From assembly GCA_051362555.1 (NCBI GenBank), contig CM120643.1, forward strand, positions 5,704,001 through 5,768,000: a DNA stretch of 64,000 nt. Reading direction: 5' to 3'. Position 1 is the stretch's first letter; each line of letters begins with the position of its first letter. The DNA comes from Lingula anatina (lineage: Eukaryota; Animalia; Brachiopoda). Under the pieces are notes generated by a model that saw nothing but the letters and a program-made list of their open reading frames with translations, was not told the DNA's origin and did not search any database. The position numbers and the translations under genes were made by a program. Of this stretch, positions 9,001-59,290 are shown piece after piece.

Positions 9001-12000
9001 TCTTGCCACATATCATGTATTGTACACATGGATAAGACATAGTGCTGCTCTTGGTGCTGTCTTTCGCTGCCTGCATCTTCATGGTAAGGGTACTCTGGAA
9101 AAAAAACAATATAACTGAAAAAACTGAAAATAACATAGAAAACGCTGGCAAATTCCACGACATAAAATAGTTAAACGTTAATAATTTTTTCAAATCTTGT
9201 CCAATCTTTCTGAAATTTGTACAAATGATGCTTAACAACAATAAAAAATCTGTGATTAGATGATCTGTTGACTGCATCTAATGAAAAGTGTTTTTTAGGA
9301 CAATATATTTGGGAAAACTGAAATTTACATTGAAAAGACTGGCAAATCCGAGGACTTAAAATAGTTAAATGTTAATAATTTTGTCAAATCTTGTCCAGTG
9401 TTTCTGAAATTTGTACAAATGATGCTTAACAACAATAAAAATCTGTGATAAGCTGATCAAATGACTGTGTCTATGAAAAGTATCTTCTTCCGACGATATC
9501 TTTGAAAAAAACTTAAAATTACACTGAAAACACTGGCAAATTGCATGCATTAAAATAGTTAAATGTTAATAATTTTGACAAATCTTGTCCAGTATTTCTG
9601 AAATTTGCACAAATGATGCTTAACAACAATATAAATCTGTGATAAGATGCTCAGTTGACTGTGTCTAATGAAAAGTGTCTTTTGGGGACAATATATTTGG
9701 GAAAACTGAAATTTACATTGAAAAGATTGGCAAATCCGAGGACTTAAAATAGTTAAACGTTAATAATTTTGACAAATCTTATCAAATATTTCTGAAATTT
9801 GTACAAATGATGCTTAACAACAATAAAAATCTGTGATAAGCTGATCAGTTGGCTGTATCAAATGAAATGTGATTTTTGGGACAACAAGTTTGGGAAAAGT
9901 GAAATTTACATTGAAAAGACTGGCAAAACCCAGGACTTGAAATAGTTAAATGTTAATAATTTTGACAAATCTTGTCTAATATTTCTGAAATTTGCACAAA
10001 TGATGCTTAACAACAATATAAATCTGTGATAAGCTGCTCAGTTGACTGTGTCTAATGAAAAGTATCTTCTTCTGACAATATCTTTGAAAAAACTAAAAAT
10101 TACACTGAAAACACTGGCAAATTACATGGCTTAAAATAGATAAATGTTAATAATTTTGCAAAGTGATTATAAAATAAAATAGCAAATGTGATGACTTGAG
10201 GTTGTTTGTGTAAAAGGTTGCAAATTACCTATAACTGTTATCTGGAAAACAATATATACCCTTACAAGACATATCCTTACTACCAATGCCAGATGCAGAT
10301 TACTCCTCACAATGGGTTTCTGGAATGGGTTGTTGTTATCCCAATATTTGACAATGTCCTAAATCTTGCCACATGTCATGTATTGTACACATGGATAAGA
10401 CATAGTGCTGCTCTTGGTGCTGTCTTTCACTGCCTGCTTCTTCATGGTAAGGGTACTCTGGAAAAAGAATAATATAACTGAAATAACTAAAATATTACAT
10501 TGGAAAGACTGGCAAATTCAAGGACTTAAAATAGTTAAACATTAATAATTTTGTCAAATCTAGTCCATTATTTCTGAAATTTGCACAAACGATGCTTAAC
10601 AACAATAAAAATCTGTGATAAACTGATCAAATGACTGTGTCTATGAAAAGTATCTTCTTCCGACGATATCTTTGAAAAAAACTTAAAATTACACTGAAAA
10701 CACTGGCAAATTGCATGCATTAAAATAGTTAAATGTTAATAATTTTGACAAATCTTGTCCAGTATTTCTGAAATTTGCACAAATGATGCTTAACAACAAT
10801 AGAAATCTGTGATAAGATGCTCAGTTGACTGTGTCTAATGAAAAGTGTCTTTTGGGGACAATATATTTGGGAAAACTGAAATTTACATTGAAGAGACTGG
10901 CAAATCCGAGGACTTAAAATAGTTAAACGTTAATAATTTTGACAAATCTTATCAAATATTTCTGAAATATGTACAAATGATGCTTAACAACAATAAAAAT
11001 CTGTGATAAGCTGATCAGTTGGCTGTATCAAATGAAATGTGATTTTTGGGACAACAAGTTCGGGAAAAGTGAAATTTACATTGAAAAGACTGGCAAAACC
11101 CAGGACTTAAAATAGTTAAATGTTAATAATTTTGACAAATCTTGTCCAATATTTCTGAAATTTGCACAAATGATGCTTAACAACAATATAAATCTGTGAT
11201 AAGCTGCTCAGTTGACTGTGTCTAATGAAAAGTATCTTCTTCTGACAATATCTTTGAAAAAACTAAAAATTACACTGAAAACACTGGCAAATTCCATGGC
11301 TTAAAATAGATAAATGTCAATAATTTTGCAATGTGATTATAAAATAAAATAGCAAATGTGATGATTTGAGGTTGTTTGTGTAAGAGGTTGCAAATTACCT
11401 ATAACTGTTATCTGGAAAAAAATATATACCCATACAAGACTTCTCCTTACTATCAATGTCAGATGCAGATTACTCCTTACAATGGGTTTCTGGAATGGGT
11501 TGCTGTTATCACAACATTTGACAATGTCCTAAATCTTGCCACATATCATGTATTGTACACATGGATAAGACATAGTGCTGCTCTTGGTGCTGTCTTTCGC
11601 TGCCTGCATCTTCATGGTAAAGGTACTCTGGAAAAAGAACAATATAACTGAAAAAACTGAAAATAACATAGAAAACGCTGGCAAATTCCACGACATAAAA
11701 TAGTTAAACGTTAATAATTTTTTTCAAATCTTGTCCAATCTTTCTGAAATTTGTACAAATGATGCTTAACAACAATAAAAATCTGTGATTAGATGATCTG
11801 TTGACTGCATCTAATGAAAAGTGTTTTTTTTTTGGGGACAACATATTTGGGAAAACTGAAATTTACATTAAAAACACTGGCAAATCTCATGACTTAAAAT
11901 AGTTAAACGTTAATAAAATTTTTAAATCTTGTCCAATATTTCTGAAATTTGTACAAATGATGCTTAACAATAATAAAAATCTGTGATTAGATGATCTGTT

Positions 12001-15000
12001 GACTGTATCTAATGAAAAGTGTTTTTTGGGACAACATATTTGGGAAAAATGAAATTTACATTGAAAAGCCTGGCAAATCCAAGGACTTCAAATAGTTAAA
12101 CGTTAATAATTTTGTCAAATCTTGTACAATATTTCTGAAATTTGTACAAATGATGCTTAACATCAATTAAAATCTGTGGTTAGATGATCTGTTGACTGCA
12201 TCTAATGAAAAGTGTTTTTTGGGACAACATATTTGGGAAAACTGAAATTTACATTGAAAAGACTGGCAAATCCAAGGACTTCAAATAGTTAAACGTTAAT
12301 AATTTTGTCAAATCATGTATAATATTTCTGAAATTTGTACAAATGATGCTTAACAACAATAAAAACCTGTGATAAGCTGATCAAATGACTGTGTCTAATG
12401 AAAAGTATCTTCTTTCGACAATATCCTTGAAAAAAACTGAAAATTACACTGAAAAATCTGGCAAATTCCATGGCTTAAAATAGTTAAATATTAATTATTT
12501 TGCAATGTGATTATAAAATAAAATAGCAAATGTGATGATTTGAGGTTGTTTGTGTAAGAGGTTGCAAATTTCCTATAACTGTTATCTGAAAAACAATATA
12601 TACCCATACAAGACTTCTCCTTACTATCAATGCCAGATGCAGATTACTCCTTACAATGGGTTTCTAGAATGGGTTGTTGTTATCACATTATTTGACAATG
12701 TCCTAAATCTTGCCACATATCATGTATTGTACACATGGATAAGACATAGTGCTGCTCTTGGTGCTGTCTTTCGCTGCCTGCATCTTCATGGTAAGGGTAC
12801 TCTGGAAAAAAAACAATATAACTGAAAAAACTGAAAATAACATAGAAAACGCTGGCAAATTCCACGACATAAAATAGTTAAACGTTAATAATTTTTTCAA
12901 ATCTTGTCCAATCTTTCTGAAATTTGTACAAATGATGCTTAACAACAATAAAAAATCTGTGATTAGATGATCTGTTGACTGCATCTAATGAAAAGTGTTT
13001 TTTAGGACAATATATTTGGGAAAACTGAAATTTACATTGAAAAGACTGGCAAATCCGAGGACTTAAAATAGTTAAATGTTAATAATTTTGTCAAATCTTG
13101 TCCAGTGTTTCTGAAATTTGTACAAATGATGCTTAACAACAATAAAAATCTGTGATAAGCTGATCAAATGACTGTGTCTATGAAAAGTATCTTCTTCCGA
13201 CGATATCTTTGAAAAAAACTTAAAATTACACTGAAAACACTGGCAAATTGCATGCATTAAAATAGTTAAATGTTAATAATTTTGACAAATCTTGTCCAGT
13301 ATTTCTGAAATTTGCACAAATGATGCTTAACAACAATATAAATCTGTGATAAGATGCTCAGTTGACTGTGTCTAATGAAAAGTGTCTTTTGGGGACAATA
13401 TATTTGGGAAAACTGAAATTTACATTGAAAAGATTGGCAAATCCGAGGACTTAAAATAGTTAAACGTTAATAATTTTGACAAATCTTATCAAATATTTCT
13501 GAAATTTGTACAAATGATGCTTAACAACAATAAAAATCTGTGATAAGCTGATCAGTTGGCTGTATCAAATGAAATGTGATTTTTGGGACAACAAGTTTGG
13601 GAAAAGTGAAATTTACATTGAAAAGACTGGCAAAACCCAGGACTTGAAATAGTTAAATGTTAATAATTTTGACAAATCTTGTCTAATATTTCTGAAATTT
13701 GCACAAATGATGCTTAACAACAATATAAATCTGTGATAAGCTGCTCAGTTGACTGTGTCTAATGAAAAGTATCTTCTTCTGACAATATCTTTGAAAAAAC
13801 TAAAAATTACACTGAAAACACTGGCAAATTACATGGCTTAAAATAGATAAATGTTAATAATTTTGCAAAGTGATTATAAAATAAAATAGCAAATGTGATG
13901 ACTTGAGGTTGTTTGTGTAAAAGGTTGCAAATTACCTATAACTGTTATCTGGAAAACAATATATACCCTTACAAGACATATCCTTACTACCAATGCCAGA
14001 TGCAGATTACTCCTCACAATGGGTTTCTGGAATGGGTTGTTGTTATCCCAATATTTGACAATGTCCTAAATCTTGCCACATGTCATGTATTGTACACATG
14101 GATAAGACATAGTGCTGCTCTTGGTGCTGTCTTTCACTGCCTGCTTCTTCATGGTAAGGGTACTCTGGAAAAAGAATAATATAACTGAAATAACTAAAAT
14201 ATTACATTGGAAAGACTGGCAAATTCAAGGACTTAAAATAGTTAAACATTAATAATTTTGTCAAATCTAGTCCATTATTTCTGAAATTTGCACAAACGAT
14301 GCTTAACAACAATAAAAATCTGTGATAAACTGATCAAATGACTGTGTCTATGAAAAGTATCTTCTTCCGACGATATCTTTGAAAAAAACTTAAAATTACA
14401 CTGAAAACACTGGCAAATTGCATGCATTAAAATAGTTAAATGTTAATAATTTTGACAAATCTTGTCCAGTATTTCTGAAATTTGCACAAATGATGCTTAA
14501 CAACAATAGAAATCTGTGATAAGATGCTCAGTTGACTGTGTCTAATGAAAAGTGTCTTTTGGGGACAATATATTTGGGAAAACTGAAATTTACATTGAAG
14601 AGACTGGCAAATCCGAGGACTTAAAATAGTTAAACGTTAATAATTTTGACAAATCTTATCAAATATTTCTGAAATATGTACAAATGATGCTTAACAACAA
14701 TAAAAATCTGTGATAAGCTGATCAGTTGGCTGTATCAAATGAAATGTGATTTTTGGGACAACAAGTTCGGGAAAAGTGAAATTTACATTGAAAAGACTGG
14801 CAAAACCCAGGACTTAAAATAGTTAAATGTTAATAATTTTGACAAATCTTGTCCAATATTTCTGAAATTTGCACAAATGATGCTTAACAACAATATAAAT
14901 CTGTGATAAGCTGCTCAGTTGACTGTGTCTAATGAAAAGTATCTTCTTCTGACAATATCTTTGAAAAAACTAAAAATTACACTGAAAACACTGGCAAATT

Positions 15001-18000
15001 CCATGGCTTAAAATAGATAAATGTCAATAATTTTGCAATGTGATTATAAAATAAAATAGCAAATGTGATGATTTGAGGTTGTTTGTGTAAGAGGTTGCAA
15101 ATTACCTATAACTGTTATCTGGAAAAAAATATATACCCATACAAGACTTCTCCTTACTATCAATGTCAGATGCAGATTACTCCTTACAATGGGTTTCTGG
15201 AATGGGTTGCTGTTATCACAACATTTGACAATGTCCTAAATCTTGCCACATATCATGTATTGTACACATGGATAAGACATAGTGCTGCTCTTGGTGCTGT
15301 CTTTCGCTGCCTGCATCTTCATGGTAAAGGTACTCTGGAAAAAGAACAATATAACTGAAAAAACTGAAAATAACATAGAAAACGCTGGCAAATTCCACGA
15401 CATAAAATAGTTAAACGTTAATAATTTTTTTCAAATCTTGTCCAATCTTTCTGAAATTTGTACAAATGATGCTTAACAACAATAAAAATCTGTGATTAGA
15501 TGATCTGTTGACTGCATCTAATGAAAAGTGTTTTTTTTTTGGGGACAACATATTTGGGAAAACTGAAATTTACATTAAAAACACTGGCAAATCTCATGAC
15601 TTAAAATAGTTAAACGTTAATAAAATTTTTAAATCTTGTCCAATATTTCTGAAATTTGTACAAATGATGCTTAACAATAATAAAAATCTGTGATTAGATG
15701 ATCTGTTGACTGTATCTAATGAAAAGTGTTTTTTGGGACAACATATTTGGGAAAAATGAAATTTACATTGAAAAGCCTGGCAAATCCAAGGACTTCAAAT
15801 AGTTAAACGTTAATAATTTTGTCAAATCTTGTACAATATTTCTGAAATTTGTACAAATGATGCTTAACATCAATTAAAATCTGTGGTTAGATGATCTGTT
15901 GACTGCATCTAATGAAAAGTGTTTTTTGGGACAACATATTTGGGAAAACTGAAATTTACATTGAAAAGACTGGCAAATCCAAGGACTTCAAATAGTTAAA
16001 CGTTAATAATTTTGTCAAATCATGTATAATATTTCTGAAATTTGTACAAATGATGCTTAACAACAATAAAAACCTGTGATAAGCTGATCAAATGACTGTG
16101 TCTAATGAAAAGTATCTTCTTTCGACAATATCCTTGAAAAAAACTGAAAATTACACTGAAAAATCTGGCAAATTCCATGGCTTAAAATAGTTAAATATTA
16201 ATTATTTTGCAATGTGATTATAAAATAAAATAGCAAATGTGATGATTTGAGGTTGTTTGTGTAAGAGGTTGCAAATTTCCTATAACTGTTATCTGAAAAA
16301 CAATATATACCCATACAAGACTTCTCCTTACTATCAATGCCAGATGCAGATTACTCCTTACAATGGGTTTCTAGAATGGGTTGTTGTTATCACATTATTT
16401 GACAATGTCCTAAATCTTGCCACATATCATGTATTGTACACATGGATAAGACATAGTGCTGCTCTTGGTGCTGTCTTTCGCTGCCTGCATCTTCATGGTA
16501 AGGGTACTCTGGAAAAAAAACAATATAACTGAAAAAACTGAAAATAACATAGAAAACGCTGGCAAATTCCACGACATAAAATAGTTAAACGTTAATAATT
16601 TTTTCAAATCTTGTCCAATCTTTCTGAAATTTGTACAAATGATGCTTAACAACAATAAAAAATCTGTGATTAGATGATCTGTTGACTGCATCTAATGAAA
16701 AGTGTTTTTTTTGGGGGGACAACATATTTGGGAAAACTGAAATTTACATTAAAAACACTGGCAAATCTCATGACTTAAAATAGTTAAACGTTAATAAAAT
16801 TTTTAAATCTTGTCCAATATTTCTGAAATTTGTACAAATGATGCTTAACAATAATAAAAATCTGTGATTAGATGATCTGTTGACTGTATCTAATGAAAAG
16901 TGTTTTTTGGGACAACATATTTGGGAAAAATGAAATTTACATTGAAAAGCCTGGCAAATCCAAGGACTTCAAATAGTTAAACGTTAATAATTTTGTCAAA
17001 TCTTGTACAATATTTCTGAAATTTGTACAAATGATGCTTAACATCAATTAAAATCTGTGGTTAGATGATCTGTTGACTGCATCTAATGAAAAGTGTTTTT
17101 TGGGACAACATATTTGGGAAAACTGAAATTTACATTGAAAAGACTGGCAAATCCAAGGACTTCAAATAGTTAAACGTTAATAATTTTGTCAAATCATGTA
17201 TAATATTTCTGAAATTTGTACAAATGATGCTTAACAACAATAAAAACCTGTGATAAGCTGATCAAATGACTGTGTCTAATGAAAAGTATCTTCTTTCGAC
17301 AATATCCTTGAAAAAAACTGAAAATTACACTGAAAAATCTGGCAAATTCCATGGCTTAAAATAGTTAAATATTAATTATTTTGCAATGTGATTATAAAAT
17401 AAAATAGCAAATGTGATGATTTGAGGTTGTTTGTGTAAGAGGTTGCAAATTTCCTATAACTGTTATCTGAAAAACAATATATACCCATACAAGACTTCTC
17501 CTTACTATCAATGCCAGATGCAGATTACTCCTTACAATGGGTTTCTAGAATGGGTTGTTGTTATCACATTATTTGACAATGTCCTAAATCTTGCCACATA
17601 TCATTTATTGTACACTTAGATAAGACATAGTGCTGCTCTTGATGCTGTCTTTCGCTGCCTGCATCTTCATGGTAAGGGTACTCTGGAAAAAAAACAATAT
17701 AACTGAAAAAACTGAAAATAACATTGAAAAGACTGGCAAATCTGATGACTTAAAATAGTTAAATGTTAATAATTTTGTCAAATCATGTCCAATATTTCTG
17801 AAATTTGTACAAATGATGCTTAACAACAATAAAAATCTGTGATTAGATGATCTGTCGACTGTATCTAATGAAAAGTGTTTTTTGAGACAACATATTAGGA
17901 AAAAATGAAATTTACATTGAAAAGACTGGCAAATCTCATGGCTTAAAATAGTTTAACATTATTAATTTTGTCAAATCTGGTCAAATATTTCTGAAATTTG

Positions 18001-18215
18001 TACAAATGATGCTTACCAACAATAAAAACCTGTGATAAGCTGATCAAATGACTGTGTCTTATGACAAGTATCCTCTTTGGACAATATCTTTGAAAAAACT
18101 GAAAATTACACTGAAAACACTGGCAAATCCCATGACATAAAATAGTTAAACGTTAATAATTTTGTCAAATCTTGTCCAATGTTTCTAAAATTTGTACAAA
18201 TGATGCTTAACAATA
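1..18215. repeat. Composite satellite array: ~194-bp monomers plus a ~395-bp cassette unit, with higher-order repeats of 4881 and 3707 bp
   Basis: The monomer start GTTAATAATTTTG-CAAATCTTG recurs at about 1, 590, 783, 977, 1171 and 1363. Cassette copies (the ORF-track MCKRLQI... segment) lie at about 255, 1618, 2788, 3962, 5136, 6499, 7669, 8843, 10206, 11376, 12550, 13913, 15083, 16257 and 17431, with spacings of 1363/1170/1174. The array runs off the left edge and degenerates at ~17.7-18.2 kb. Confidence 0.97.
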
Positions 18216-18526
18216 ATTTAAATATATGTTGGAATTTACAACAGGTGACTATATACAACTTTTTCAATAGCAGTATATGAATCAGCTGTGCAACAATTTT
18301 TGAAATGGAATAATATCTGTAATTTTACAGCTGGAACATAATTTATATCTTATTTTCTAACTCAGAAATTTTAATTTTCTGCATAAAATGAACCCATTAC
18401 CTGTCTCTCAATCCATGAGTGTACTAAATTGACAAGCAACCTTTACAGCTTCATGAAGGCCATTACCCAGTGCACTACCTGACAACCCATTTCTTTGATA
18501 TCATCTTCATTCTCAGCAATACTTAC

Positions 18527-18640
18527 TACACCCTTCCTCATCACTGTTAGCTCTACAGTCATTGTCCTGGTCACATCTTCATGATAAGTTGATAAAGCAG
18601 CCATTATCACATACAAACTTATATGGAGGACATGTGTGAT
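18527..18640 (-). pseudogene. Degenerate exon encoding an LDL-receptor class A (LDLa) repeat
   Basis: The minus strand reads (D)HTCPPYKFVCDNGCFINLS*RCDQDNDCRANSDEEGC, matching the LDLa pattern C-x4-F-x-C-x-NG...W-x-CD-x3-DC-x3-SDE-x2-C with the conserved Trp turned to TGA. The exon is 114 nt, phase 1/1, with a GTAAGT donor; the acceptor reads ...CTTCCTGTGG (AG lost). Confidence 0.85.
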
Positions 18641-18960
18641 CCACAGGAAGACAATAAAAAATACATCTTTAAAGCAATCTACTTTATTTTCAAGTGTCTT
18701 AAAAACTGTTCCTTCAATTTCTTTGACAAAGCAATAAAATATCCGAAAGATTTATATAAAAATTCTTACATCAGTAGCAACACAAAATCACTCAAATATC
18801 AGGTATTACATTGAACAAGATGAAAACTTGCTGAAAGGCTGTAATTAAGCAGCATTACAGATTCAAAAACTCACTGAAATATGTAAAAATCTAGAAGACA
18901 ATGCAATCTACTTATGACGATTTATGAAACTCTATTGTTATCTGACCATCTTGAAAATAA

Positions 18961-19400
18961 GTCTGGAGTCATTGTGTGTGTGTGTTTTTTTAGTATAGTC
19001 CCGTGTCTCCTAGTACAGTGTAGTAGTCTGGAGTCATTGTGTTCCATTGTGGCAGTATAGTCCTGTGCCTCCTAGTACAGTGTAGTAGTCTGGAGTCATT
19101 GTGTTCCATTGTGGCAGTATAGTCCTGTGTCTCCTATTACAGTGTAGTAGTCTGGAGTCATTGTGTTCCATTGTGGCAGTATAGTCCTGTGTCTCCTAGT
19201 ACAGTGTAGTATTCTGGAGTCATTGTTGTCCATTGTGGCAGTATAGTCCTGTGTCTACTAGTACAGCGTAGTAGTCTGGAGTCATTGTGTTCCATTGTGG
19301 CAGTATAGTCCTGTGCCTCCTAGTACAGTGTAGTAGTCTGGAGTCATTGTGTTCCATTGTGGCAGTATAATCCTGTGCCTCCTAGTACAGTGTAGTGTGG
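18961..19400. repeat. 62-bp minisatellite, about 7 copies
   Basis: Unit GTCTGGAGTCATTGTGTTCCATTGTGGCAGTATAGTCCTGTGCCTCCTAGTACAGTGTAGTA starts at 19026, 19088 and onward at the same period. Confidence 0.95.
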
Positions 19401-19788
19401 AGTCAGATGATGGACTGGAAAAGACAAAAAAAAGTCAATGACTAGGGTTTTTCCTCAAGATCCAGAATATTAGAATTACATCAAATAAAATGCAAAGAAA
19501 TATTTTATAAAATAAATTTACCAAAAAAAGTATTGTTGTAAGTCAAAGCTGAAGCATACACTGTACCAGTAATGATAATAAAGAGGTGGGTTTATGGTGC
19601 TTTCTAAAACTCGGGATGGTAGTGCTAGTTCACGTAAGTGGACACTCCATGGGAAGTTTTAGTTGTTCATAGTTAAGTTCATATATTACTATTTCGACAG
19701 ATGACTCAAAAGAAACAAGAAAAATGCCCACTTAAAATAAAAATTATATTAGAAGGCATAACGTCAGCTCTCCAATTAATTATCTCAC

Positions 19789-19880
19789 CTTCATAAGCCA
19801 TTGGGTAATTACAGAAGAAAAGAGAATGGAAAAGTTGAAGTAGATGACGGCTTGCAATCGTGTCAGTTCTCCAAAAACAC
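19789..19880 (-). pseudogene. Possible degenerate first (signal-peptide-like) exon of the LDLa-containing gene
   Basis: The minus strand reads ...CFWRTDTIASRHLLQLFHSLFFCNYPMAYE-G|gtgaga. This phase-1 donor joins the LDLa exon in frame (E-D-H-T-C). No in-frame ATG precedes the hydrophobic stretch. Confidence 0.3.
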
Positions 19881-20109
19881 TTTTAATCTGCAGCGTCAAG
19901 GTTCTGCAGCACATTGTAAAATCTTCACCAGCACATTGCATCGTGATGTGAACAGTGAACAACTGACACAGTCGATACCATATGTATCCGTCACTTTAGA
20001 TGTCTCATCCTGAATTCACCGATTAAGTTTGTCAATAGAATCTATAACAAAACCATCTAAGAAAAGTGTCCTGATGTATGGTGAAACTCAGTGTGCAGAA
20101 CGTTTGATG

Positions 20110-20300
20110 AAAATTCCGACTTTTCAGCGTCACGCTTCGCCTAGTCTACGCCATATAAAAATTGTTTAGTATATAGATGGCGCTATGCAAGAGGTGAGAC
20201 TTAGGATTTGTAAAGGACTGCGGCCAGTATCAGCAACAGGTTCACCGCCTGCTTTCTAAGAAACTCGTGCGAGGAGGGAGAGAGTTCTGGGACCGTAATA
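20110..20300. promoter_or_regulatory. Candidate bidirectional promoter
   Basis: A locally CpG-rich patch with ATGGCG (YY1-like) motifs on both strands and TATAAAA at ~20154. It sits between the divergent minus-strand LDLa remnant and the plus-strand micro-exon gene. Confidence 0.3.
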
Positions 20301-20491
20301 GATATGACCAGGGTCCAGGCACTGTGATATATATTGCGATATTTAGTAGAAAGACTCAAGGTCGAGAGCTTCAACGGTGCGTCAATCTGATTGGTTTAAA
20401 GTTAAGGAAACAATACAGGAACCGTCCAATGAAATTCTTTTATACAATAATTATTCCTGTTTATTGTTTTAGTAAACAAAGCAAAGAGACA

Positions 20492-21894
20492 ATGTCTACA
20501 CAGTCGCTGGTGAGTTTTATTTTTTATTCAATACTGAAATTCTGCAGCAAGTTCAATGTAAGCCCACACAGCACATAATGATGAAATGCTCCTTTAATAT
20601 TGTCAAATACATTTAAGACTTTATTTTAGTGTATATCATAACTTGTAAATAATAAATAAATGTGCCATCTTATTCCAGTGGGATTACATGTACAAGCCTG
20701 AAGTCCACACAAGTGGTAAGTCCACACCATTGCTTTATTCAATCAACTTGATGCATTTTTTATCTTTTAGGAAGGATTCATGAAATAAAATTACAACAAC
20801 ATCTTGACTCTCAGGGTGCAAGTCTGGACCCTCAGGGGCTGTTGGCAATGAATTTGGAGACCTAGCTAATGTGCACTAACTCCATGGAAACTCTCACTGA
20901 ATACAATCAGATTAACAGACTAACACGCTTCTTTTTGTCTCCAACATACTCCAACATACTCACATAAATGGTATTCCTTAAAATTCAATTCTGTTCTTTC
21001 AGGTGATACTAAAGAAGAGAATAATGTAGCAATTGTTAAGACCCAAAGCATTGAGGAACTAGGTAAGGCTGGAATCTCAGTAAAATAATAGTGTTATGAA
21101 TTTTAATGTACTCGCACACACACATACACTAACAAACACACATACACATACACATACACATACACACCGCAAGCGTGTTGCTCAAGCAAAAATCTATTTT
21201 TTAGCATACTTAAGAAGATAATTTATTTATTTTTAAGTCAATTAAATCTTTGAATGTGTCTTCATCAAATTGAATCCTTTTTGAACATGCACAGATATAA
21301 TGGAATGTTAAGTTTGTATTTTTAAATATTTAAATATTATTAAAACATCATTTTTTCTTTAGCTGATATCAAAGACACAAAGAGTGTGTCAGATGCTGAG
21401 GGCAGTGAGGAGAGAGGTAAGACAGTAAGATCAATTTAACAGGTGTTCATTTAACACACTTAAAAAATTTACACACACACAAACAGGCTCTCAGACACAA
21501 ACAGGTCTTCCAAACAGGTCTTCCAGAAGATGGTCAGAATTTTCCAAGTTTACATTGATGGGGATTTAATTTTTTGTCAGAAGACAGTCCACAATGGAGG
21601 ATGGATCAGCAAACATAATTTGCAAGACTGTCAGAAAATCTCTCTAGATCCGACCCTTACAAACATTGTGTTTTTATTCCCTGTTCAGTGATCTAAATCT
21701 TTGAATACATCTTTGACTATGGTATTGAATCCTTGTTGTGCATGGGCATGGGATGTTGAATGTGTGTTCCTTTTTTTCTTCAGTTGATGTCAAAGACACA
21801 ACAATTACTATGACAGAGTTCGTGAAGGAGAGAGGTAAGACAGCAGGGTCAGTAGAATAGGGATCTATTTATTACATTGATGACATGTAATAGT

Positions 21895-21942
<48 letters not shown>

Positions 21943-22615
21943 GATACCAAACTGAAAGACAAGAACAATGTAACACTTGTAAAGACCCTAAGTATGGAGG
22001 AGATAGGTAAGACAGGAATCTCAGTAAAATAGTTATGAATTTTAATATACTTATGAAACATGCATGCACACACACATACACTAACAAACACACATACACA
22101 CACATACACACAACAAGCATGCTGCTCAAGCAAAGTCTTTAACATACTTAAGAAGATTATTTATTTCTTAAGTCATTTAAATATTTGAATGTGTCTTCCA
22201 TAAATTGTAATACTGAATCCTATTTGGACATGCACAGATATGGAATGTTAAGTTTCTATTAGATATCATTTTTTCTTTAGCCAATATCAAAGACACAGAG
22301 AGTGTGTCAGATGCTGAGGGCATCAAAGAAAAAGGTAAGACAATAAGCTTAGGACAATTTAATGGGGAATTCATTTAACACACTTAAAAATGTCAACACA
22401 CACAGATGGACTTTAGGGGGGAGACTCTCATGCACAAACACTGAGTTTAAATTCTCTGTTCAGTGATCTAAATCTTTGAATGAATCGATGACTTTGTTAA
22501 GTAATGTATTGAATTCTGGTTGTGCACAGGTATGAAATGTTTCATTTGTTTTCCTGTCTTTCTTCAGTCAATATCAAAGACACAAAACCTGTGACAGTGG
22601 ATGTGAAGGAGAGAG
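20492..22615 (+). CDS. Spliced micro-exon gene, unknown acidic/Lys-rich repetitive protein (3' end uncertain)
   Basis: Canonical AG/GT exons: 20473-20509 (ATG at 20492, MSTQSL), 20679-20715 (WDYMYKPEVHTS), then phase-1 exons 21003-21062 (GDTKEENNVAIVKTQSIEEL), 21363-21416 (ADIKDTKSVSDAEGSEER), 21784-21834 (VDVKDTTITMTEFVKER), 21941-22006 (VDTKLKDKNNVTLVKTLSMEEI), 22281-22334 (ANIKDTESVSDAEGIKEK) and 22568-22615 (VNIKDTKPVTVDVKER). The joined frame is open. Possible further exons are 23142-23164 and 23316 onward, with AATAAA at 23392. Confidence 0.7.
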
Positions 22616-22710
22616 GTAAGACAGTAGGGTCAATAGAATAGGGGTCTATTTATTACACTGATGGAATGTGATTGTGCATGTACACACGCACACGCACACA
22701 CACACACTCC
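21003..22710 (+). repeat. Tandem duplication of a three-exon block including its introns (~0.8-0.9 kb unit)
   Basis: Exons and introns of 21003-21900 are paralogous to 21941-22710. Examples: GGAATCTCAGTAAAATA after exons A and A'; CAGTGATCTAAATCTTTGAAT in both second introns. Confidence 0.85.
21896..21938. repeat. (CA)n microsatellite
   Basis: Direct read. Other simple repeats: (CA)n ~24948-24980 and ~35792-35818, poly-T ~30870-30917, (TTTA)n ~32806-32840, (AAAT)n ~48687-48717, poly-A ~62713-62743, (TA)n ~63571-63610. Confidence 0.95.
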
Positions 22711-23975
22711 TTATGTTGTGCCAACACAGTTTGTGCTTTTGGCAAGTTTAAAATAACATTGGCAGAATTGTTTATTCCAAATACTGGTAAAAGTGTTTCA
22801 TTGAAGCTTCATACATGAAATATGATGTTGCACTGACTTATTGAACATTTTATACTTTTGCCTCTTAGTAAGTATAATACATTTCAGCGCCAATCTAGGT
22901 GGAGGAGGGTATTGAATCTGTTCACGTCTTGCTTCAGACGGAGGGCACAAACATAAATGGTTATTATTATTATTATTAATTAATTAATTAATTAATTCTA
23001 AACACTTCAGACATTAAGAAATGAAGAAAAGTCAACAGTATTTTTAAAAGAATAGATTTATTATACATTTACAGAGAAGTTCTTTTTGATTGTCTCTTTG
23101 TTTTGATGGTATCATAACTAAGTAAGCTTTCAGTTTTTTAGAGGAAAACTATGTCAAACAGCTGGTAAAACTGTAAACATTGAAGTAGTAAATTAATTAT
23201 ATCACAGTAGCCAGGAGCTGGTGGTTGTAGAGATACTGTCAACATCTATTTACGCCTAACTGAATACACATTTTAACTGAATTATATTTTAAAATTTAAT
23301 CTTTTATTTTTTTAGGGTTGTCAGTGCAGAACTTTCTTTGCCTCTGTAGAAGCCAGTTAAAAACTGCAAAATGTCATTCTCTAAATTTTACAATAAAATA
23401 TTAATATTTGTTATCAAATGAGTTTTGTTTTTCTTTTCTTAATTGAGGGTACCATTGGGGAGGGGTGTTCACAGTTCACAGGAAATAAAACCATTAATGT
23501 ACAAATCACAGTAAATAAAACTTTATTTGTATCTCACTGACAATGCTCATGGAAAATCCTGAAAATTACGAATTAGTGGGTATAAGGCTTTGTTTGACGA
23601 AGGGCAAAGAATAAAAAGCCACATTTTTGAGTCACGCAAATTAGTTGCTTTACGGATCACGCTAAATAATATGGACATTTCACGCATCTCGGGTAAAATA
23701 AAAAGTGACTTTCATGGGTAACAATATACCCAATGGGACTAGTTTGAAAAAACATAATATAACGATTCTTGCATAAAGGCATTTGAGACGTCATGCAAGA
23801 AGCCACCACTTGACTTTTATTACAATAAATGAAGCACTATAGTACCCTGTAATTACCTTATTCCAAAACACAACATTTGATTTCTGATTCAAGTTTTTCT
23901 TAAATTTTTATCCAATTCTTTTTTTATTTCATTTATTAAACTTAAGAAATAAACTATACATGGTACAAACTTTTA

Positions 23976-24232
23976 GGCTTCGTTCACATGCAATGTCTAT
24001 TTTCTAAATTCTATTTTCTATTTTCGGTATGTCTTATGATCACGGTCTGTGCACTGAATATCCCGCGGCGTAATTACTGGCAGCGCGAGCCAGTTACTAT
24101 AAGTTACTATAAGTAACTGGCTCGCGCTGCCAGTAATTACGCGGCGGGATATTCAGTGCACAGACCGTGATCATAAGATAGCGCGAATAGAAAATAGAAT
24201 TTAGAAAATAGACATTGCATGTGAACGAAGCC
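23976..24232. mobile_element. Foldback MITE, PIF/Harbinger type
   Basis: A near-perfect 257-bp palindrome with ends GGCTTCGTTCACATG...CATGTGAACGAAGCC, flanked by TTA on both sides. A 3-bp TWA target-site duplication is characteristic of PIF/Harbinger. Confidence 0.88.
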
Positions 24233-24945
24233 TTAACTATATTCAAATACGTACATAAATACTCATACTCACACACATGTACCCTACCATACGGCTCAAT
24301 TACTGATAACTTCACTTTCGGTTTTATATTCCAGCATGTTCATGTTTAAATACAATAGATATATAGTTCAAACTCCTAGGAATTCACTTTTATACGTGTA
24401 ATATTGAGAGCATTTAACGGTTAACGCATCTGGTGGCTACAGTGGAGGAACGGGGAAAACACCCCAACGTTATTAACATTTCCAGTAAAATAATTGGATC
24501 TCCCCAACTAGATGGTATCATTAATGACAGAATGAAGAAAAAAAAAAACAAAATGAATTGTGGGGATCCCAATTGTTTATATTTAAATATTACTTGTACT
24601 ATTGCTATAGCCATGTTACATGTATTATCATTAAAAAAAGTACTGTAAATAGCGGCAACAAGTTCTTTTTTAACTCATTTTTCAAAACGATTAAAGGATT
24701 CAAAATCTTTTACAACACCCTGCTGCGGTACGATTTTATCTCTTTTACGCCCACTACGCTTAAAAATATGTGCTCGAAGTAGCTACATCTTTTTACTTTT
24801 CTTGTCCCAAATGTACCCATAAAATATGATAAGCACAGGTGTTGACTCGATTTCCGTGTTCATCGAAAGACTTACTAAAGAAAGAGAGAGGGAGCACGTT
24901 ATAATTATTTTTCTATACAACGTACGTAAGTGCGCCCGCACGCAA

Positions 24946-24984
<39 letters not shown>

Positions 24985-25217
24985 GCCAGGCGCGAAGAAA
25001 GGGGGGGGGGGGGGAACCAATGCCGAAGTTGTGCGTCGGCAAAATGTTTGTCCTACCTAAATCATCATCAAAGTTATAATAAAGTACAGAATGTGCAGAC
25101 CAGCATAATTAACAGCTGTGGGCTTGGATACAAAACCGTCGCCAACGCTCTCAGTTCAGGTCTATCCTTTAAAATAAAATGTTTTATTATATAAAATATA
25201 ACATGAGTAAAACCATA

Positions 25218-28200
25218 TAGTCTATGGGCCAATGTAGACCCCCCTCCCCCCCCTTAGTGATTTTCGTTCACTATGTTTTTCTGATAGCTTAGGTCCTAAG
25301 CTTTGATTTTCCGCTTGTTTGCCATTAAACTGGTGGTGGGTGTGTGTGCTACAGCCGTTGCCATGGAAACGTCTGAGATAAAAAATTGAAATTTCTGAGA
25401 CCAAAAAAATATTAAATTATTCAAATGTGTTAAGTGAATGGAATTCAAAATCCTTTCAGATGTATAGTTTAAGAGCTGCACTATACTTTATGATCCTCAA
25501 AATATTCCAATATGGCTGTAAATTCAAGATGGCGACCAATTTTTGCTAATTTTTGAGTAATTTCAATTATTTTTTTATATTTGAGTCTTTATTCAATAAT
25601 AAAGGAATATGAATGTGGGATATGTTTTGATGCGCTGGAATAGCATACAGTCTCTACTTGCTACCTACAGTATTTATTTTAGATGAAACCTTTTAATTTT
25701 GTTGTAAAATCCTCAAATCCAAAATGGTGACCAAAATATAAGTCTGCTGTCCCAACTGGAAAGATGCCAGATTTCTCATCAAAGTGTCATTCTTTATTAC
25801 TTTTAATAAACTGAATTCGAGCTAAGGACTTTTTAAAACAATTTGCATTAATATTGATTACATTAAGACTTTCAAAATTCAAAATGGCCGCCAATATGCT
25901 TATACACACTGGCTAAAATTGATATAATATATTCTTCCAACAGAATATTGATTTTAATTATCTCCCACCAACTTAGTCCCATAAGTGATTTTTGTTTACT
26001 ATTATTTTCTGGTAGGTTAGGCCCTTAGCTTTTATTTTTTGCTTGTTTGCCATTAACCTGGTGGTGGGTGTGAGTAACAGAGCTGTTGCCATGGTAGTGT
26101 CTGGGGTTGAAAATTGATATTTTTGAGACCAAAAATAAAAATTAAATATTCCAAATGCATTACAAATCATGGAATTCACAATTATACCAGATGTGTAAAT
26201 TAATAAGTGTGCTATACTTCACAATCATCAAAATGTCCCAAGATGGCAGCAAATTCAAGATGGCTGCCAATTATTGCTTATTTTTTAATAATTTTGGGAA
26301 TTTTTTTATATTTGAGTTTTTATTTAATTATTAAGAAATTGCAATGTGGCATGTGTTTTGATGTTCCATTATGGTAAAAAGCCTCTGCTGTCTGCCTTAA
26401 GTGCTTGTTAAAGATGTAACCTTTTAATTTTGACGTAAAATCCTGAAATCCAAGGTGGCTGCCACAAAACATGTCTTTTACATACGGCTGTCCTAACTGG
26501 AAAGATGCCACATTAATCATCCCAAATTACATTCTTTATTACTTTTAGGTGTACTGAATATGGACCTAGGACCCTTTTCTATAAATTGTGTTAATTCAGA
26601 TTGCATTATGACTTTTGAAATTCAAAATGGCCGCCAATTTGCTTACACATGAAATGATATAATACATTATTCCAATACAAAATAAAATTTAATAAACTCA
26701 AGCTAGCTCAGCCCTATTAGGAATTTTTATTTACTATGATTTTCTGATAGCTTGGGCCCTAAGTTCAAATATTCTGCTTGTTTGCCATGTAATAGGTGAA
26801 AGGTGTGACAGATTCAGCTGTTACCATAGTAACACAGGGGTTTTAAAATTATATTTTCTGAGACCTTTAAATTGCCATGTATTTCAAATATATGAACTCG
26901 CTGTATTGTAAACTTTTTAGAAAAAAATTAGACTTGGACCTCAGTTATCAACAAAATTATTTGAAAAAATTTTCGTAGTTAAATTGCCAAAATGGCAGCC
27001 AATTCAAGATGACGATAGGTTTATGTTAATTTCCTTCTTATTACTGAAAGTAGCTTTTTGTAAACTTTGAAAGCAGCATTGGAATTGAAAAATGTTAGGT
27101 TTTTGGATATGCTGATATGAACAGCATTGCATAATTACTGTTTACAGTGATTGTTACTCCTATATCCTCTTTTTTAAGTGTAATAAAACCTAAAACCCAT
27201 GGTGGCCATCACAAAACAGGGTTCATACATATTGCTGTGCTGACCGAATATATATTACATTTTCATTTCAAAATGCCTCTTTTGCTCTTTCTGATAAACT
27301 GAATTAAACTATTAGGATATTACCTAAATATAAATCATTTCTATTCATTTTCAGCCAAATTATATTTACTTGGCTATTCCAAAATTCACCATGGCCACAA
27401 ATGGCCATGACAGTGCAGGTATGAATTTTGCTGCAATAATATTAAACAGTGCAACAAACAAATAATTCTAAAATTTGTGCAGTTAATTATAATCAAATAT
27501 GCCCTTTCTACACTTATACACTTACTATTACTATACGATCTTGGCTTCATATTATTCAAATTCAATACATCAAAAGGTAACAACAAATACAAAAGAATAA
27601 AAGAATAAATCCAGATAGAAAGAAGGCAATTTCGGAGAACAATATACAATATTAGAAGTTTAATAGGACAGCAATATATACACAATATACACCCAGGATT
27701 TGTTGGGGTCATTTTGAATTTCAAGTTTTTTTTGTTCTTAAAATGATAATTATAGGAATAACAAACACTATAAGCCGTAAGTAAAGACTAAATACCATAT
27801 GGATATCAAAATACTTTTTCAAAACATTTCTCGATCCCATTAAATTTATTAAATTTTCAACGTTAGTTACTTACAGTAGAAACAGGTTTAGAAATCAGCT
27901 TAAACCGGCTGCAATTTTGATATTATTGCCATCTTGAAAAAAATCACATCATCTTGAAAGTTCAAAGAATGTTTTGCCATCATACCACGAATACAGATGT
28001 CTTCTTAAGTTTACATTATTGTTGAAGTTAATATATTTGAAATGTATGAAATTTTCTTAGTCTCAGAAATGTCAATTTCGAACCCCTGTGTTAGTATGGC
28101 AATGGCTGGGTTAATTGAATAGAAAACAAGCCGAAAATGGGATCTTAGGATGTAAGCGATATATAATAGTAAATAAAAGTCGCTAAAGGGGGATTCAGGT

Positions 28201-29330
28201 TAATAAAATCAATCTAAGTAACAATCTTTTGAAATATAATTTTCAATTAATTTTTTAGCAAGAGTGTATCATATTGACCATAAATATATAGTCCCCTATA
28301 CTCATTGACAGCCATTTCTTTCAAATGCGACAGAATACATTAGTATTTCAACTCAAAAGTTTTCTTTTCCATGTCAAATGTGAGTGATTAGCATGTACAT
28401 GAAACTTTGTGTGATTTCTTAGGTCAAATATGAGTGACTTGCATTTATTGGGGGGTATTATAGGTCTTTTATCTAGTCTAGGTTATTGTTGACCATTTGA
28501 TCTTTCTTTTTTTAATCATTTTACATGACCACACATCTAGTAGTGATCAGCACTGTTAAAACATAAGTATTCATTCAATTTTAAGATAAAATTAGGAATA
28601 TTGCTGTCATATTTTAGTCTACTGGTTACAAAGATGTAAATTCACGGTCATTGGCGGCCATTTTGAGTTTTGAAAGCCATACTGTAATCCAAATTAAGTC
28701 AAGTAATTGAAAAGGGTTCTGTTTTTATATTCAGTGCACCAAAAGTAATGAAGAACTTAATTTGGGATGATAAATCTGTCATATTTCCAGACAGGACAGC
28801 TACATGTAAAAGACTTGTTTTGTGGCAGCCATGTTGGATTTCAGGATTTTTCATCTCAATAAAAAGATTGCACCTTGAACAAACACTACAAACAGAAAGT
28901 AGAGATTCCATGCTACACTGGTGCATCAAAATATCCCAGATATTGCAATTCTTTAATATATGAATTAAAAAATTAAAACTTATCAAAATTTCTGAAAAAA
29001 CAGCAAAAATTGGCCGCCATCTTGGATTTGCCGCCATCTTGGAAAATTTTGTTCATCGTTAGGTATAGTGCACATCTTAGACTACATGTCTAGAATGATT
29101 TTGAATTCTATTTAGTTTATGTATTTGAAATATTTTAGATTTTGTTGGGCTCAGAAATGTCAATTTTTAACCCGTGTGTTACCATGGCAACGGCTGTAGC
29201 ACACACACCCACCACCAGTTTAATGGCAAACAAGCAGAAAATAAAAGCTAAGGACCTAAGCTATCAGAAAAACATAGTGAACGAAAATCACTAAGGGGGG
29301 GGAGGGTTTCGGTATTTGGCCCACGGACTA
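25218..29330. mobile_element. Non-autonomous DNA transposon with long TIRs, Academ-like
   Basis: Termini are TAGTCTATGGGCCAA...TTGGCCCACGGACTA, flanked by ATA/ATA. Inverted similarity extends ~670 bp (25218-25895 vs 28650-29330). The left arm is internally repeated at ~25975 and ~26715. There is no transposase ORF. TAG..CTA ends with a 3-bp TSD fit Academ. Confidence 0.8.
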
Positions 29331-30881
29331 ATAACGCCATACTATAATCAAAATTCTTCTCCCCCCCCCCCCCCAATACGCCCCCTTTCTGCTGATACCA
29401 TACAAACTCGGCGTGTGTTAAGTGTGAAAGCTATAAGGTAGATCAAGTTCATGGATAGGATATGCCATGTAAGGGGAGATAGGTTATGTCCTTTTGCGTT
29501 TCTTTATTTTGTCGATTTTGAGAAGAAATATCACTGTCTTGTATTACACTTAGTCAATATAAATTTTAAAAAGGTCAATTTCCCTTCCTCTGTCACGTAA
29601 TTCGAAAGATGTAATTAACTACAACTAATTCCTAGAAAACCTTTACCCCCTTGTGTAAATGCAATGTGCCGTCTGCAGAGCTCGGCGTCAGCTACCACGC
29701 TGGATGCTTCGCGCTTGGCGGGAGCTGAACAGTTAACGCGGTCTGAAAAATTTTAGGGAGAGTCAGATGAAATACAGAGGAAACGTGGCATATATATAAA
29801 GTTCTACATGGTAAAGCTGGAGATGTAGCCTAGTTTTACTTTTTTCTTTGAAACTTTGCAATTTACTCTGCCTTTCAGTAGTCCCATGCAACCAAAATGT
29901 TTTGCTGGTATAATGATATATCTCCCACTTCTGTCTCCCCTCTAAAACGGTCCACACAAAAAAAATCAATAATCGTATGGCAATTTTATACAGGCAATTG
30001 ACCTACTTTTATAACCATGCAGCTATCAACGAGTTTTATGGCTGCGGAGTGAAGACGTGATACACGTCTGTGATATAAAAAAATATTACTAATTACACAA
30101 TTTACAATCAGTGCATATGATTCAAAAGTGTCCCGATTTGTGAGCTTAAGGGGACATTACTTTTTGAAAGTAATGAAAAATTGGAAACAAGCCAAAATCA
30201 GAAAAAAATGCATTTTTTCTCTTATATGCAAATTAGGTTCCTTGAAGTAATATATGACTGGCCGGAAGTGATGTTCATATCAGATATTTGTAATGATGAT
30301 GATCTTAATGATAATTAATGATGCTTAAAAAAATCTTATTAAAGTTTTCAGTTGTCATCTGGTGGGAAAGAAATTTTCTGCACTAACACAATCATTCCAC
30401 AAGTGAAACATAGATAGTAAACGCGCCGCAGAGATGCACTGCATACGTCCCAGCTTTTGGGTGAAAATCGCACGCCGAAGATAATAGGCTATAATTATTA
30501 TGTAAAAATATGCGTGTCTAAGGCTTCCATTAAAATTTTGACTGCATTTCTATTCATCTGGTTCGACAAAGGTGACTTTTACAGGGATATTTTCTTTCTC
30601 TTTTTTAAAGCGAAAACTAGGCATAAAAGTCAAAATATTCAGAAGTAAAAAGATTTCAAAGTTTAAAATCTTCTTGGTCACTCGTGGTAGTTCACGGGGA
30701 AACTTTAAGACATCTTACAATTGTATAAATTGATAATCATACGATTACGCGCTTCTTAATTATGTTCGTGATACACAAGTAAATTACGCTCAAACTTAAA
30801 ACCGCCTTGACTTGTGTCAAAATTACATTTTACATTAGACAATTAAATTTTTGGGTTGTGTCAAATTGTGTTTTTTTTTTC

Positions 30882-50081: not shown

Positions 50082-50658
50082 ATACATAATAAAGATATAT
50101 TTAATAAAGTATATTATAGTTTGTACTTCCTATTATATTTCAGGTAATTTGATCAAAACAACAGTCCAAGTTGGTATAGGTTTTTTAAATATTTGTTTGA
50201 ATTTTGTTGTTGAGCATAATACATTGAGCACTGCATGAATAGGTTGATAGCTACTTTTGTCTTTTTTGAATTATGGTTATTAAAAAAAAAAAAAAAAAAA
50301 AAATTAAATATTACCTAACACGGTTACACTGTTCAAACTAATATGTTGCAGTTTAGCATGTGTTTTGCATGTAATCGGATTAGAGGTTGTCAAGGTAATA
50401 ATTCTTTTCTTTTTACACATTTTAATGATGGTATTTTATTTGGGGATTTGATATAAAAGTAATATTTATACATAGTAAAGGCGGCGATGCTGTAATACTA
50501 TGTTAGTAATTAATGAAATACTATGTTTATGATGTAATACTGTGTTAATAATGTAAAATTATGTTTATAATGTAATATGTTAATATTCATTTGAAAGAAA
50601 AGATCATTATCATATATGTTCATTCAAGAAAATAAACCATTGTATAAGTTTATTTCAG

Positions 50659-51490
50659 ATATGGATGATCTAGACATGCTAGATGAAGCCTGTTTTGTCC
50701 CGGATTATGATGACACTGATTTGGTGGAAGATCCTACTGTCCTAATTGGTGAAGAGGGGAAGGAAGTTATCCACTCAAATTGCAGAAGGAAGAAACAGAG
50801 GAAAGAAGTTCAGTGTGGTTTGTGTCTGGTGTCCAGTGCTGACCTGAGTAGACATCTTGGACGTCATGTGAAATCTGTTCATTTGCCATGGTATATGACT
50901 CCAGGATTGGTGTGCTGGTATTGCAGATCGATGGAGAAGGACAATTCGCTTTTGCGTAAACGTCATGGTGATGTTCATTCGTATGGAACTGGTGAATTCC
51001 AGGAAAAACTGTGGATCCAATTGGTGAATGGATTTATACATTTCCTGATATTAACATTAAATATGAGAAATATATGGGAACTGATGGACTATGTGAAAAG
51101 TGAAGGACTAGTAATGTTGCCAGATAACTGTTCCAAGGAGGACATTGACTTTGTAAAAATATACATTTATGGAAATGGTATGGAGCCTAAGACTGAGATT
51201 CTGAATTCTTTGTTGACTTTGTTTCACTGGAGAACTTTGTATCATCTGTTACAAAAACTTTCATTGGAGGATCGTGAACTCAGTAGTCATTGGTAACAGC
51301 AGATGAAATTTGCTCTGCTGCATGGATGAAAGATGAACTATAATATGATTTCACATTTCACATTGACATTGTTATCATTAATAATATTGTTTTGAGCAAC
51401 TTTGAGTTAAAATCACTTTGTTTACTTTAAAGTTGATTTAAAGGGATAATGGATTTTAAAAAGTTTATTTTGCTTTCCTAAAGATGGACA
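50659..51490 (+). pseudogene. Zn-finger-like ORF, probably the N-terminal part of a TatD-like nuclease gene, truncated
   Basis: ORF 50616-51296 contains CGLC...RHLGRHVKSVHLPWYMTPGLVCWYC...H...H and LFHWRTLYHLL. Downstream degenerate DFTFHID (~51347) and FCFPKD (~51468) resemble the DSHFHLD and xFxFP motifs at the start of TatD-type domains. Acceptor TTTATTTCAG ends at 50658. Confidence 0.5.
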
Positions 51491-59082: not shown

Positions 59083-59290
59083 ATGAAGAAGGCATATGTG
59101 GGCGACTACTGCTGTGTGCCTGGATGCACAAACTCCCGTGGGAAATGTAATCGGGAGGAGCAAGCAATAAGCTTTTACCAATTCCCCAAAGATGTCAGAC
59201 GTAAACACAACTGGCTGTGCCACATACCTGTAGATAAAGATTTTGTGCCTACAACATCCACAAGGATATGTTCTGTGCATTTTGAAGAAG

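What the first reader, a model, noticed from the sequence alone, without database searches (positions are those of the whole stretch)
20473..23400. Hidden micro-exon gene made of duplicated symmetric phase-1 exons
Seen: six exons of 60, 54, 51, 66, 54 and 48 nt, all multiples of three, all phase 1/1, all stop-free and all ending AG|GTAAG. They share a D/N-x-K start (DIKDT-like in four) and an acidic end. Length differences between paralogous exons are frame-preserving (60 vs 66, 51 vs 48), which suggests selection on the reading frame. Two upstream exons supply an ATG in the correct phase. Inference: any subset can be skipped in frame, giving combinatorial isoforms as in schistosome micro-exon genes. 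No protein family is recognised.
Basis: partly seen in the sequence, partly recalled or inferred. Interest (0 to 1): 0.7.

Follow-up and report, generated by a model that had tools for sequence, protein, structure and literature searches.

The report
Acidic orphan gene from copied mini-exons
Six short, frame-keeping exons copied in tandem are spliced into RNA and likely encode the variable-length acidic spacer of a small protein with no known relatives, a real but fairly ordinary case of a gene growing by exon duplication rather than a schistosome-type micro-exon gene.

Summary
The six exons (60, 54, 51, 66, 54, 48 nt; phase 1-1; stop-free; AG|GTAAG) are there. They are one tandem duplication of a three-exon unit of about 0.93 kb. 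Plus-strand RNA reads join 5 of the 8 predicted junctions directly. Reads also join around the 66-nt exon and around the whole second unit, at only 1-7 reads per joint. Other reads carry exon variants absent from the window, so exon skipping and differences between gene copies cannot be told apart. The last exon starts at 22888, not near 23316. Its arginine/cysteine tail is in frame only in reads with 14 extra letters that the window lacks. The product (110-132 aa, pI about 4.7) has no signal-peptide-like or membrane stretch and no homologue in the searches made. It fails the schistosome MEG tests (signal peptide, exons under 36 nt). Selection shows on splice sites and frame, not on residues (dN/dS 0.49, p=0.13). 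Best reading: a lineage-specific disordered protein with a variable spacer, perhaps membrane-tethered like GAP-43 or paralemmin (inferred). The scan noted similar exon architectures in other genomes, not this sequence.

The parts
20154..20160 (+). TATA-like box (motif recalled), candidate promoter shared head-to-head with a minus-strand RNA
   Evidence: sequence; plus-strand RNA depth 4.95 in 20140-20266 in run X3; start site not mapped
20473..20509 (+). E1, 37 nt, holds the likely start ATG at 20492
   Evidence: plus-strand depth 0.7-1.5 in its bin and 0 in the next intron bin in X1-X3; E1-E2 joint not listed
20679..20715 (+). E2, 37 nt, phase 0 to 1, aromatic motif WDYMY
   Evidence: printed from 20680; joint E2-A in X1 6, X2 3, X3 3 reads
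21003..21062 (+). repeat exon A, 60 nt, phase 1-1
   Evidence: joints E2-A and A-B (X1 4, X3 3; listed as a 300-nt skip shifted by 4)
21363..21416 (+). repeat exon B, 54 nt, phase 1-1
   Evidence: joint B-C X1 1, X2 1, X3 4
21784..21834 (+). repeat exon C, 51 nt, phase 1-1
   Evidence: joints C-B' (X1 4, X2 3) and C-22888 (X1 3)
21896..21939 (+). (CA)22 run in place of the pyrimidine tract of A'; lies at the junction of the two duplicated units
21941..22006 (+). repeat exon A', 66 nt, phase 1-1; bypassed in some reads
   Evidence: joint A'-B' X2 2, X3 7, plus X1 5 with a variant start; C-A' not listed, but the tool skipped 21888-21946 as a repeat
22281..22334 (+). repeat exon B', 54 nt, phase 1-1
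   Evidence: joint B'-C' X2 7, X3 2
22568..22615 (+). repeat exon C', 48 nt, phase 1-1
   Evidence: joint to 22888 with 14 other letters between, X2 2 reads (table 5c)
22888..22956 (+). start of the last exon; frame 0 holds 22 codons (7 Arg, Trp, 2 Phe, 1 Cys, no acidic residue); a direct phase-1 join gives a stop after 3 codons
   Evidence: single-sequence model is helical, mean pLDDT 63
19789..20200 (-). first exon of a divergent spliced RNA (neighbour, approximate 5' end)
   Evidence: depth 67-87 in X1 and X2; loose ends at 19789 match 19385-19414

Best explanation
This is a spliced, weakly expressed gene whose middle was built by tandem duplication of frame-keeping exons, and it likely encodes a small acidic, unfolded, non-secreted protein whose spacer length differs between transcripts and gene copies. 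Shown: exon layout, duplication of a three-exon unit, splicing, joints that bypass exons, and exon variants in reads that the window lacks. Inferred: (a) units are gained and lost by unequal crossing-over in the homologous introns, with the last breakpoint in a CA microsatellite; phase 1-1 makes every such change frame-neutral. (b) The breakpoint cost exon A' its pyrimidine tract, which would make it the exon most often skipped. (c) Selection keeps splice sites, frame and charge rather than residues, as for a spacer. (d) In copies whose last exon has the 14 extra letters, a basic tail with Trp, Phe and one Cys would bind the inner face of a membrane and could be S-acylated, so the protein would work like GAP-43 or paralemmin: an acidic disordered body on a basic lipid anchor. 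The window's haplotype would make the tail-less, soluble form.
For: Junction reads on the plus strand at 5 of 8 predicted joints, with GT..AG ends at 4 of them. All 27 splice letters are unchanged between the three exon pairs while introns differ at 69 of 406 sites (chance 0.0065, though the exons were picked for these letters). Three of 3 independent exon length changes are multiples of three. Product pI 4.5-4.7, GRAVY -0.7 to -0.8, best 19-residue hydropathy 0.03. The 14 letters in two X2 reads restore exactly the long frame of the last exon. Disordered proteins built from tandemly duplicated symmetric exons are a known trend (PMC3632108, passages). A Cys beside basic residues suffices for GAP-43 S-acylation (PMC6944663, abstract).
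Against: Exons diverge as fast as introns (32 of 162 vs 69 of 406, p=0.47); dN/dS 0.49 does not differ from 1 (p=0.13). No stop in 29 changes has chance 0.29. The long tail rests on 2 reads in one run. Its hydrophobic moment is not special: 1222 of 5000 shuffles reach it. No translation evidence and no homologue. E1-E2 and C-A' joints are not listed. No exon joint in 2 of 6 runs laid (X5, X7).
Confidence: 0.55

Rival explanations
1. The window holds a decaying, still transcribed copy of a functional gene that lies elsewhere; most reads come from the intact copies.
For: The last exon lacks 14 letters seen in other reads and stops after 3 codons. A' has lost its pyrimidine tract. At 10 of 10 listed exonic differences the reads carry the sister exon's letter, as if the window copy holds private changes (the tables keep only the best-supported rows, which favours this pattern). 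Exon and intron divergence are equal. The locus borders a 17.7-kb satellite.
Against: All donors and acceptors are intact and no repeat exon has a stop or frameshift. Reads with 0-2 other differences cover A, B and B'. A join from C straight to 22888 is listed in X1 (3 reads; letters between 'not known').
Confidence: 0.25
2. A MEG-like diversifier: exon skipping and fast evolution make a pool of variant proteins exposed to a parasite, host or mate.
For: Small product, symmetric exons, bypass joints, fast exon evolution, several copies or alleles, no homologue, expression in some samples only.
Against: No signal-peptide-like stretch from the ATG at 20492 (best 9-residue hydropathy 1.14). No coding exon under 36 nt. 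dN/dS is below 1. Few bypass types are listed. MEGs all carry a signal peptide and appear restricted to flatworms (PMC4350168, passages).
Confidence: 0.1
3. The exons are the variable part of a longer gene whose other exons lie outside the stretch examined.
For: E1 is open from its acceptor to the ATG, so an upstream coding exon could add to it. The 5' end is unmapped, and loose-end tables were filled by repeats.
Against: A TATA-like box, plus-strand reads at 20203-20214 and a divergent transcript point to a promoter near 20150-20200. The upstream 18 kb is satellite. Both frames used at 22888 end in a stop. A scan found no other exon of this type in the window.
Confidence: 0.1

Closest known systems
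Disordered proteins assembled from symmetric exons by internal tandem duplication (Schad et al. 2013, PMC3632108; start of abstract and passages seen)
   Same: Successive homologous exons of one symmetric phase (1-1) encoding a hydrophilic, low-complexity stretch; gain by tandem duplication; skipping keeps the frame.
   Different: Here nearly the whole protein is such exons, there is no recognised family, and exon number and length vary between copies or alleles.
Schistosome micro-exon genes, MEG (PMC4671649, PMC4350168, PMC4015677; passages seen)
   Same: Small product, central run of symmetric short exons, skipping in frame, fast evolution, multiple copies.
   Different: No signal-peptide-like stretch; exons 48-66 nt, not under 36; exons are homologous repeats; introns only 106-367 nt; earlier scan notes call the genome a brachiopod (not tested here).
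GAP-43, paralemmin, CAP-23, MARCKS type proteins (PMC2148134 and PMC6944663, abstracts seen)
   Same: Acidic hydrophilic body, differential splicing, a short basic stretch with Cys at one end (long-tail form only).
   Different: No sequence similarity found, no CaaX cluster, one Cys only, much smaller; lipidation and location untested. A 'works like' lead, not membership.

Membership tests
Schistosome MEG | Central coding part mostly of microexons under 36 bp | tested here: not met
   Internal coding exons are 37-66 nt; definition in PMC4671649. A preprint listing gives a wider range of 3-81 bp (10.1101/2023.06.21.545858, listing only), which these would fit.
Schistosome MEG | Exons mostly symmetric | tested here: met
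   6 of 8 internal coding exons
Schistosome MEG | N-terminal signal peptide, secreted product | tested here: not met
   Best 9-residue hydropathy in the first 40 residues 1.14, best 19-residue 0.03; hydropathy only, no signal-peptide predictor; 5' end unmapped
Schistosome MEG | Many isoforms by exon skipping from one gene | tested here: inconclusive
   C-B' and C-22888 joints beside A'-B' joints in the same runs; gene copy of origin unknown
Schistosome MEG | High dN/dS | tested here: inconclusive
   0.49 on 51 codons, not different from 1
Schistosome MEG | Gland or epithelial expression at a host interface | not testable with these tools
   Runs are coded, with no tissue given
Disordered protein from tandem symmetric exons | Neighbouring exons homologous and of one symmetric phase | tested here: met
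   the 50 nt after each donor are 62-88% alike across all six
Disordered protein from tandem symmetric exons | Encoded region disordered | tested here: inconclusive
   Composition fits: 27 acidic, 19 basic and 1 aromatic residue in the 105 whole codons of the six exons; no disorder predictor or fold of the spliced product was run
GAP-43 / paralemmin type | Sequence homology | tested here: not met
   No Pfam hit; no homologue, all with single-exon queries of low power
GAP-43 / paralemmin type | Lipidated basic terminus binding the inner plasma membrane | not testable with these tools
   Motif present only in the long-tail form

The most novel reading that the evidence does not exclude
A free-living invertebrate runs a polymorphic family of small intracellular proteins diversified on four levels at once: exon skipping set by a CA microsatellite, exon copy number, in-frame exon length variants, and a 14-letter switch in the last exon between a membrane-anchored and a soluble form. 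That would be MEG-like variation turned inward, for example in germ-cell or immune recognition.
Probability: 0.2. Interest if true: 0.6.

Novelty: new member of a known kind. Interest (0 to 1): 0.35.

Why it matters
It is an expressed gene that homology searches and ORF scans miss, caught while it gains, loses and trims exons. It shows how a microsatellite at a duplication breakpoint can create a skippable exon. If the tail switch is real, one small indel would decide where the protein sits in the cell. The way it is built is already known, and no function is shown, so the interest is modest.

Tried and rejected
No whole genome was held, so copies could not be counted. No RNA holder was listed; the 9 runs came by species label, and 6 of the 9 were laid, with about 6% of each read (25% of X7). 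Homologue searches among proteins longer than the query: profile of the six exons, 0 of 481 candidates at E<=10; E2 frame, no candidate; A frame, 0 of 5. Full HMMER scan with the last-exon frame: 2 hits at E 5e-4, both repeat proteins, judged chance. ESM Atlas: nothing usable, best 0.85 to unnamed 20-22 aa clusters. Pfam: none for any exon frame tried. Metagenome scan: 596 pattern matches, 0 confirmed. Rfam on 18000-30000: 0. All protein queries were single exons, most with translated intron flanks; the spliced product itself was not searched or folded, so absence of relatives is weak. Rejected: 23316 as last exon (no joint listed). Rejected: the X4 joint 22334 to 21811 as back-splicing (it reads as a 48-nt C-type exon variant). 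Rejected: the weak PCNA_N hit at 18443-18748 (below cut-off). Rejected: a strongly amphipathic tail. The bacterial promoter scan does not apply. The 14 letters were sought in 19000-27000 by 13 of them: no match within 2 mismatches, one unrelated at 3. Print searches (20 of 27, 20 of 23 and 15 of 981 papers listed) showed no paper on such a gene in brachiopods. Supplements and gene models of genome papers were not looked at and may hold it. The original MEG paper was not held.

Full report
Setting. The window is AT-rich animal-type DNA (29-41% GC). Its first 18 kb is a 193-bp satellite, and the rest is rich in repeats with no long gene-like frame. No whole genome was held. Earlier AI notes on the same genome call it a brachiopod, Lingula; I did not test this.

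Observation. All six exons are as described: A 21003-21062 (60 nt), B 21363-21416 (54), C 21784-21834 (51), A' 21941-22006 (66), B' 22281-22334 (54), C' 22568-22615 (48). Each is phase 1-1, open, and ends AG|GTAAG. Six of the 8 AGGTAAG words in 18300-64000 are these donors. Two 37-nt exons upstream supply an ATG in frame. The six are one duplication of an A-B-C unit of about 0.93 kb, introns included. The 50 nt after the six donors are 62-88% alike, so A, B and C arose from one exon earlier. The two units meet in a (CA)22 run that has replaced the pyrimidine tract of A' and leaves a 106-nt intron.

RNA. Nine RNA runs were offered by species label; six were laid. In X1, X2 and X3, reads of the plus-strand RNA join E2-A (6, 3, 3 reads), A-B (4, 0, 3), B-C (1, 1, 4), A'-B' (5 with a variant start, 2, 7) and B'-C' (0, 7, 2) (several also at 92% likeness). 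That is 5 of 8 predicted joints. E1-E2 is not listed. C-A' is not listed but lies in a stretch the tool skipped as a repeat. C' joins 22888 only with letters between. Bypass joints are C-B' (X1 4, X2 3) and C-22888 (X1 3). X4 shows low depth and one variant joint; X5 and X7 show no exon joint. Counts are small, from about 6% of each run.

More than one copy or allele. Some reads differ from the window by one to three letters; others differ more and carry exons the window lacks: a 42-nt B-type exon, a diverged 48-nt C-type exon, and two B'-like exons in a row. At 10 of 10 listed exonic differences the read has the letter of the sister exon. This fits private changes in the window's haplotype plus reads from related copies, and the tables' choice of best-supported rows favours it. 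Without DNA of the same animals, skipping and copy differences cannot be separated.

Last exon. RNA puts it at 22888, not 23316. A direct phase-1 join gives three codons and a stop; products are 132 aa with all exons, 110 without A', and 76 for one unit. Frame 0 of the same exon holds 22 codons with 7 Arg, Trp, two Phe, one Cys and no acidic residue. Two reads in X2 have 14 extra letters before 22888 that put this frame in register. These letters are not in 19000-27000. Their first six match the first six at 22888 at five places, which suggests a slippage deletion in the window's haplotype (inference); a separate small exon is also possible. A single-sequence model of this frame with its intron flank is helical at low confidence (pLDDT 63). 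Its hydrophobic moment is unremarkable (1222 of 5000 shuffles).

Selection. Sister exons differ at 32 of 162 sites and introns at 69 of 406 (p=0.47). dN/dS is 0.49 (p=0.13 against 1). Absence of stops in 29 changes has chance 0.29. The 27 splice letters are unchanged (chance 0.0065, with the caveat of ascertainment). Exon length changes are in frame in 3 of 3 events, but 6 of 12 internal intron indels are multiples of three too. So exon identity and frame look kept while residues drift, as for a spacer.

Protein. It is acidic (pI 4.5-4.7) and hydrophilic, with no signal-like or membrane stretch. No family or relative was found. These searches used single exons, so they are weak.

How it likely works. 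Unequal crossing-over between homologous introns adds or removes units without changing the frame (inferred). A' has the weakest acceptor and is the exon bypassed in C-B' reads; intronic CA repeats are known splicing regulators (seen only as a cited title in PMC3796306; otherwise recalled). The long-tail form would have a basic, Cys-bearing end on an acidic disordered body. That is the plan of GAP-43, where a Cys beside basic residues drives S-acylation (PMC6944663, abstract), and of paralemmin (PMC2148134, abstract). This step is untested, and I give it about 0.3 on its own.

Comparison. Schistosome MEGs have a core of exons under 36 bp and a signal peptide (PMC4671649, passages). They all carry a signal peptide and appear restricted to flatworms (PMC4350168, passages; also PMC4015677, passages). 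This gene fails both tests, though it shares symmetry, small size and fast change. It fits the general class of disordered proteins assembled from tandemly duplicated symmetric exons (PMC3632108, passages; lead taken from scan note e1-9524913). The scan has noted similar architectures in other genomes but no look-alike of this sequence.

Verdict. It is a new member of a known kind, interest 0.35. Main rival: a decaying transcribed copy (0.25). Most novel reading not excluded: a four-level diversified intracellular family with an anchor switch (probability 0.2, interest 0.6).

Noticed in passing
window 19789-20200 and 19414 downward, minus strand: A spliced RNA runs head-to-head with the gene (depth 67-87 in X1 and X2, under 4 in X4 and X7), high in the same runs. 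It enters a 62-bp tandem array (18992-19396). Likely a non-coding or pseudogene RNA from a shared promoter.
   Followed up: partly
window 18520-18668, minus strand: Remnant of an exon with the cysteine pattern of an LDL-receptor class A repeat (pattern recalled; the piece before the stop has no Pfam hit), with an in-frame stop and an intact donor.
   Followed up: partly
window 534-18217: 193-bp satellite, about 91 copies. Identical spurious ORFs recur every 3707 nt, a sign of a higher-order repeat.
   Followed up: no
window 21500-21657: A repeat fragment sits in the B-C intron of unit 1 and is absent from unit 2. It draws depth of 450-490 from other transcripts.
   Followed up: partly
window 23972-24236: Palindromic element with 59- and 83-nt arms, present on both strands in all four runs; MITE-like.
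   Followed up: no
window 25189-26865: Degenerate tandem repeat with a period of about 730-740 nt.
   Followed up: no
window 59083-59289 and 50595-51296: A THAP domain (Pfam E 2.7e-12) and a 233-aa Cys/His-rich frame without a Pfam hit; probably transposon-derived.
   Followed up: partly
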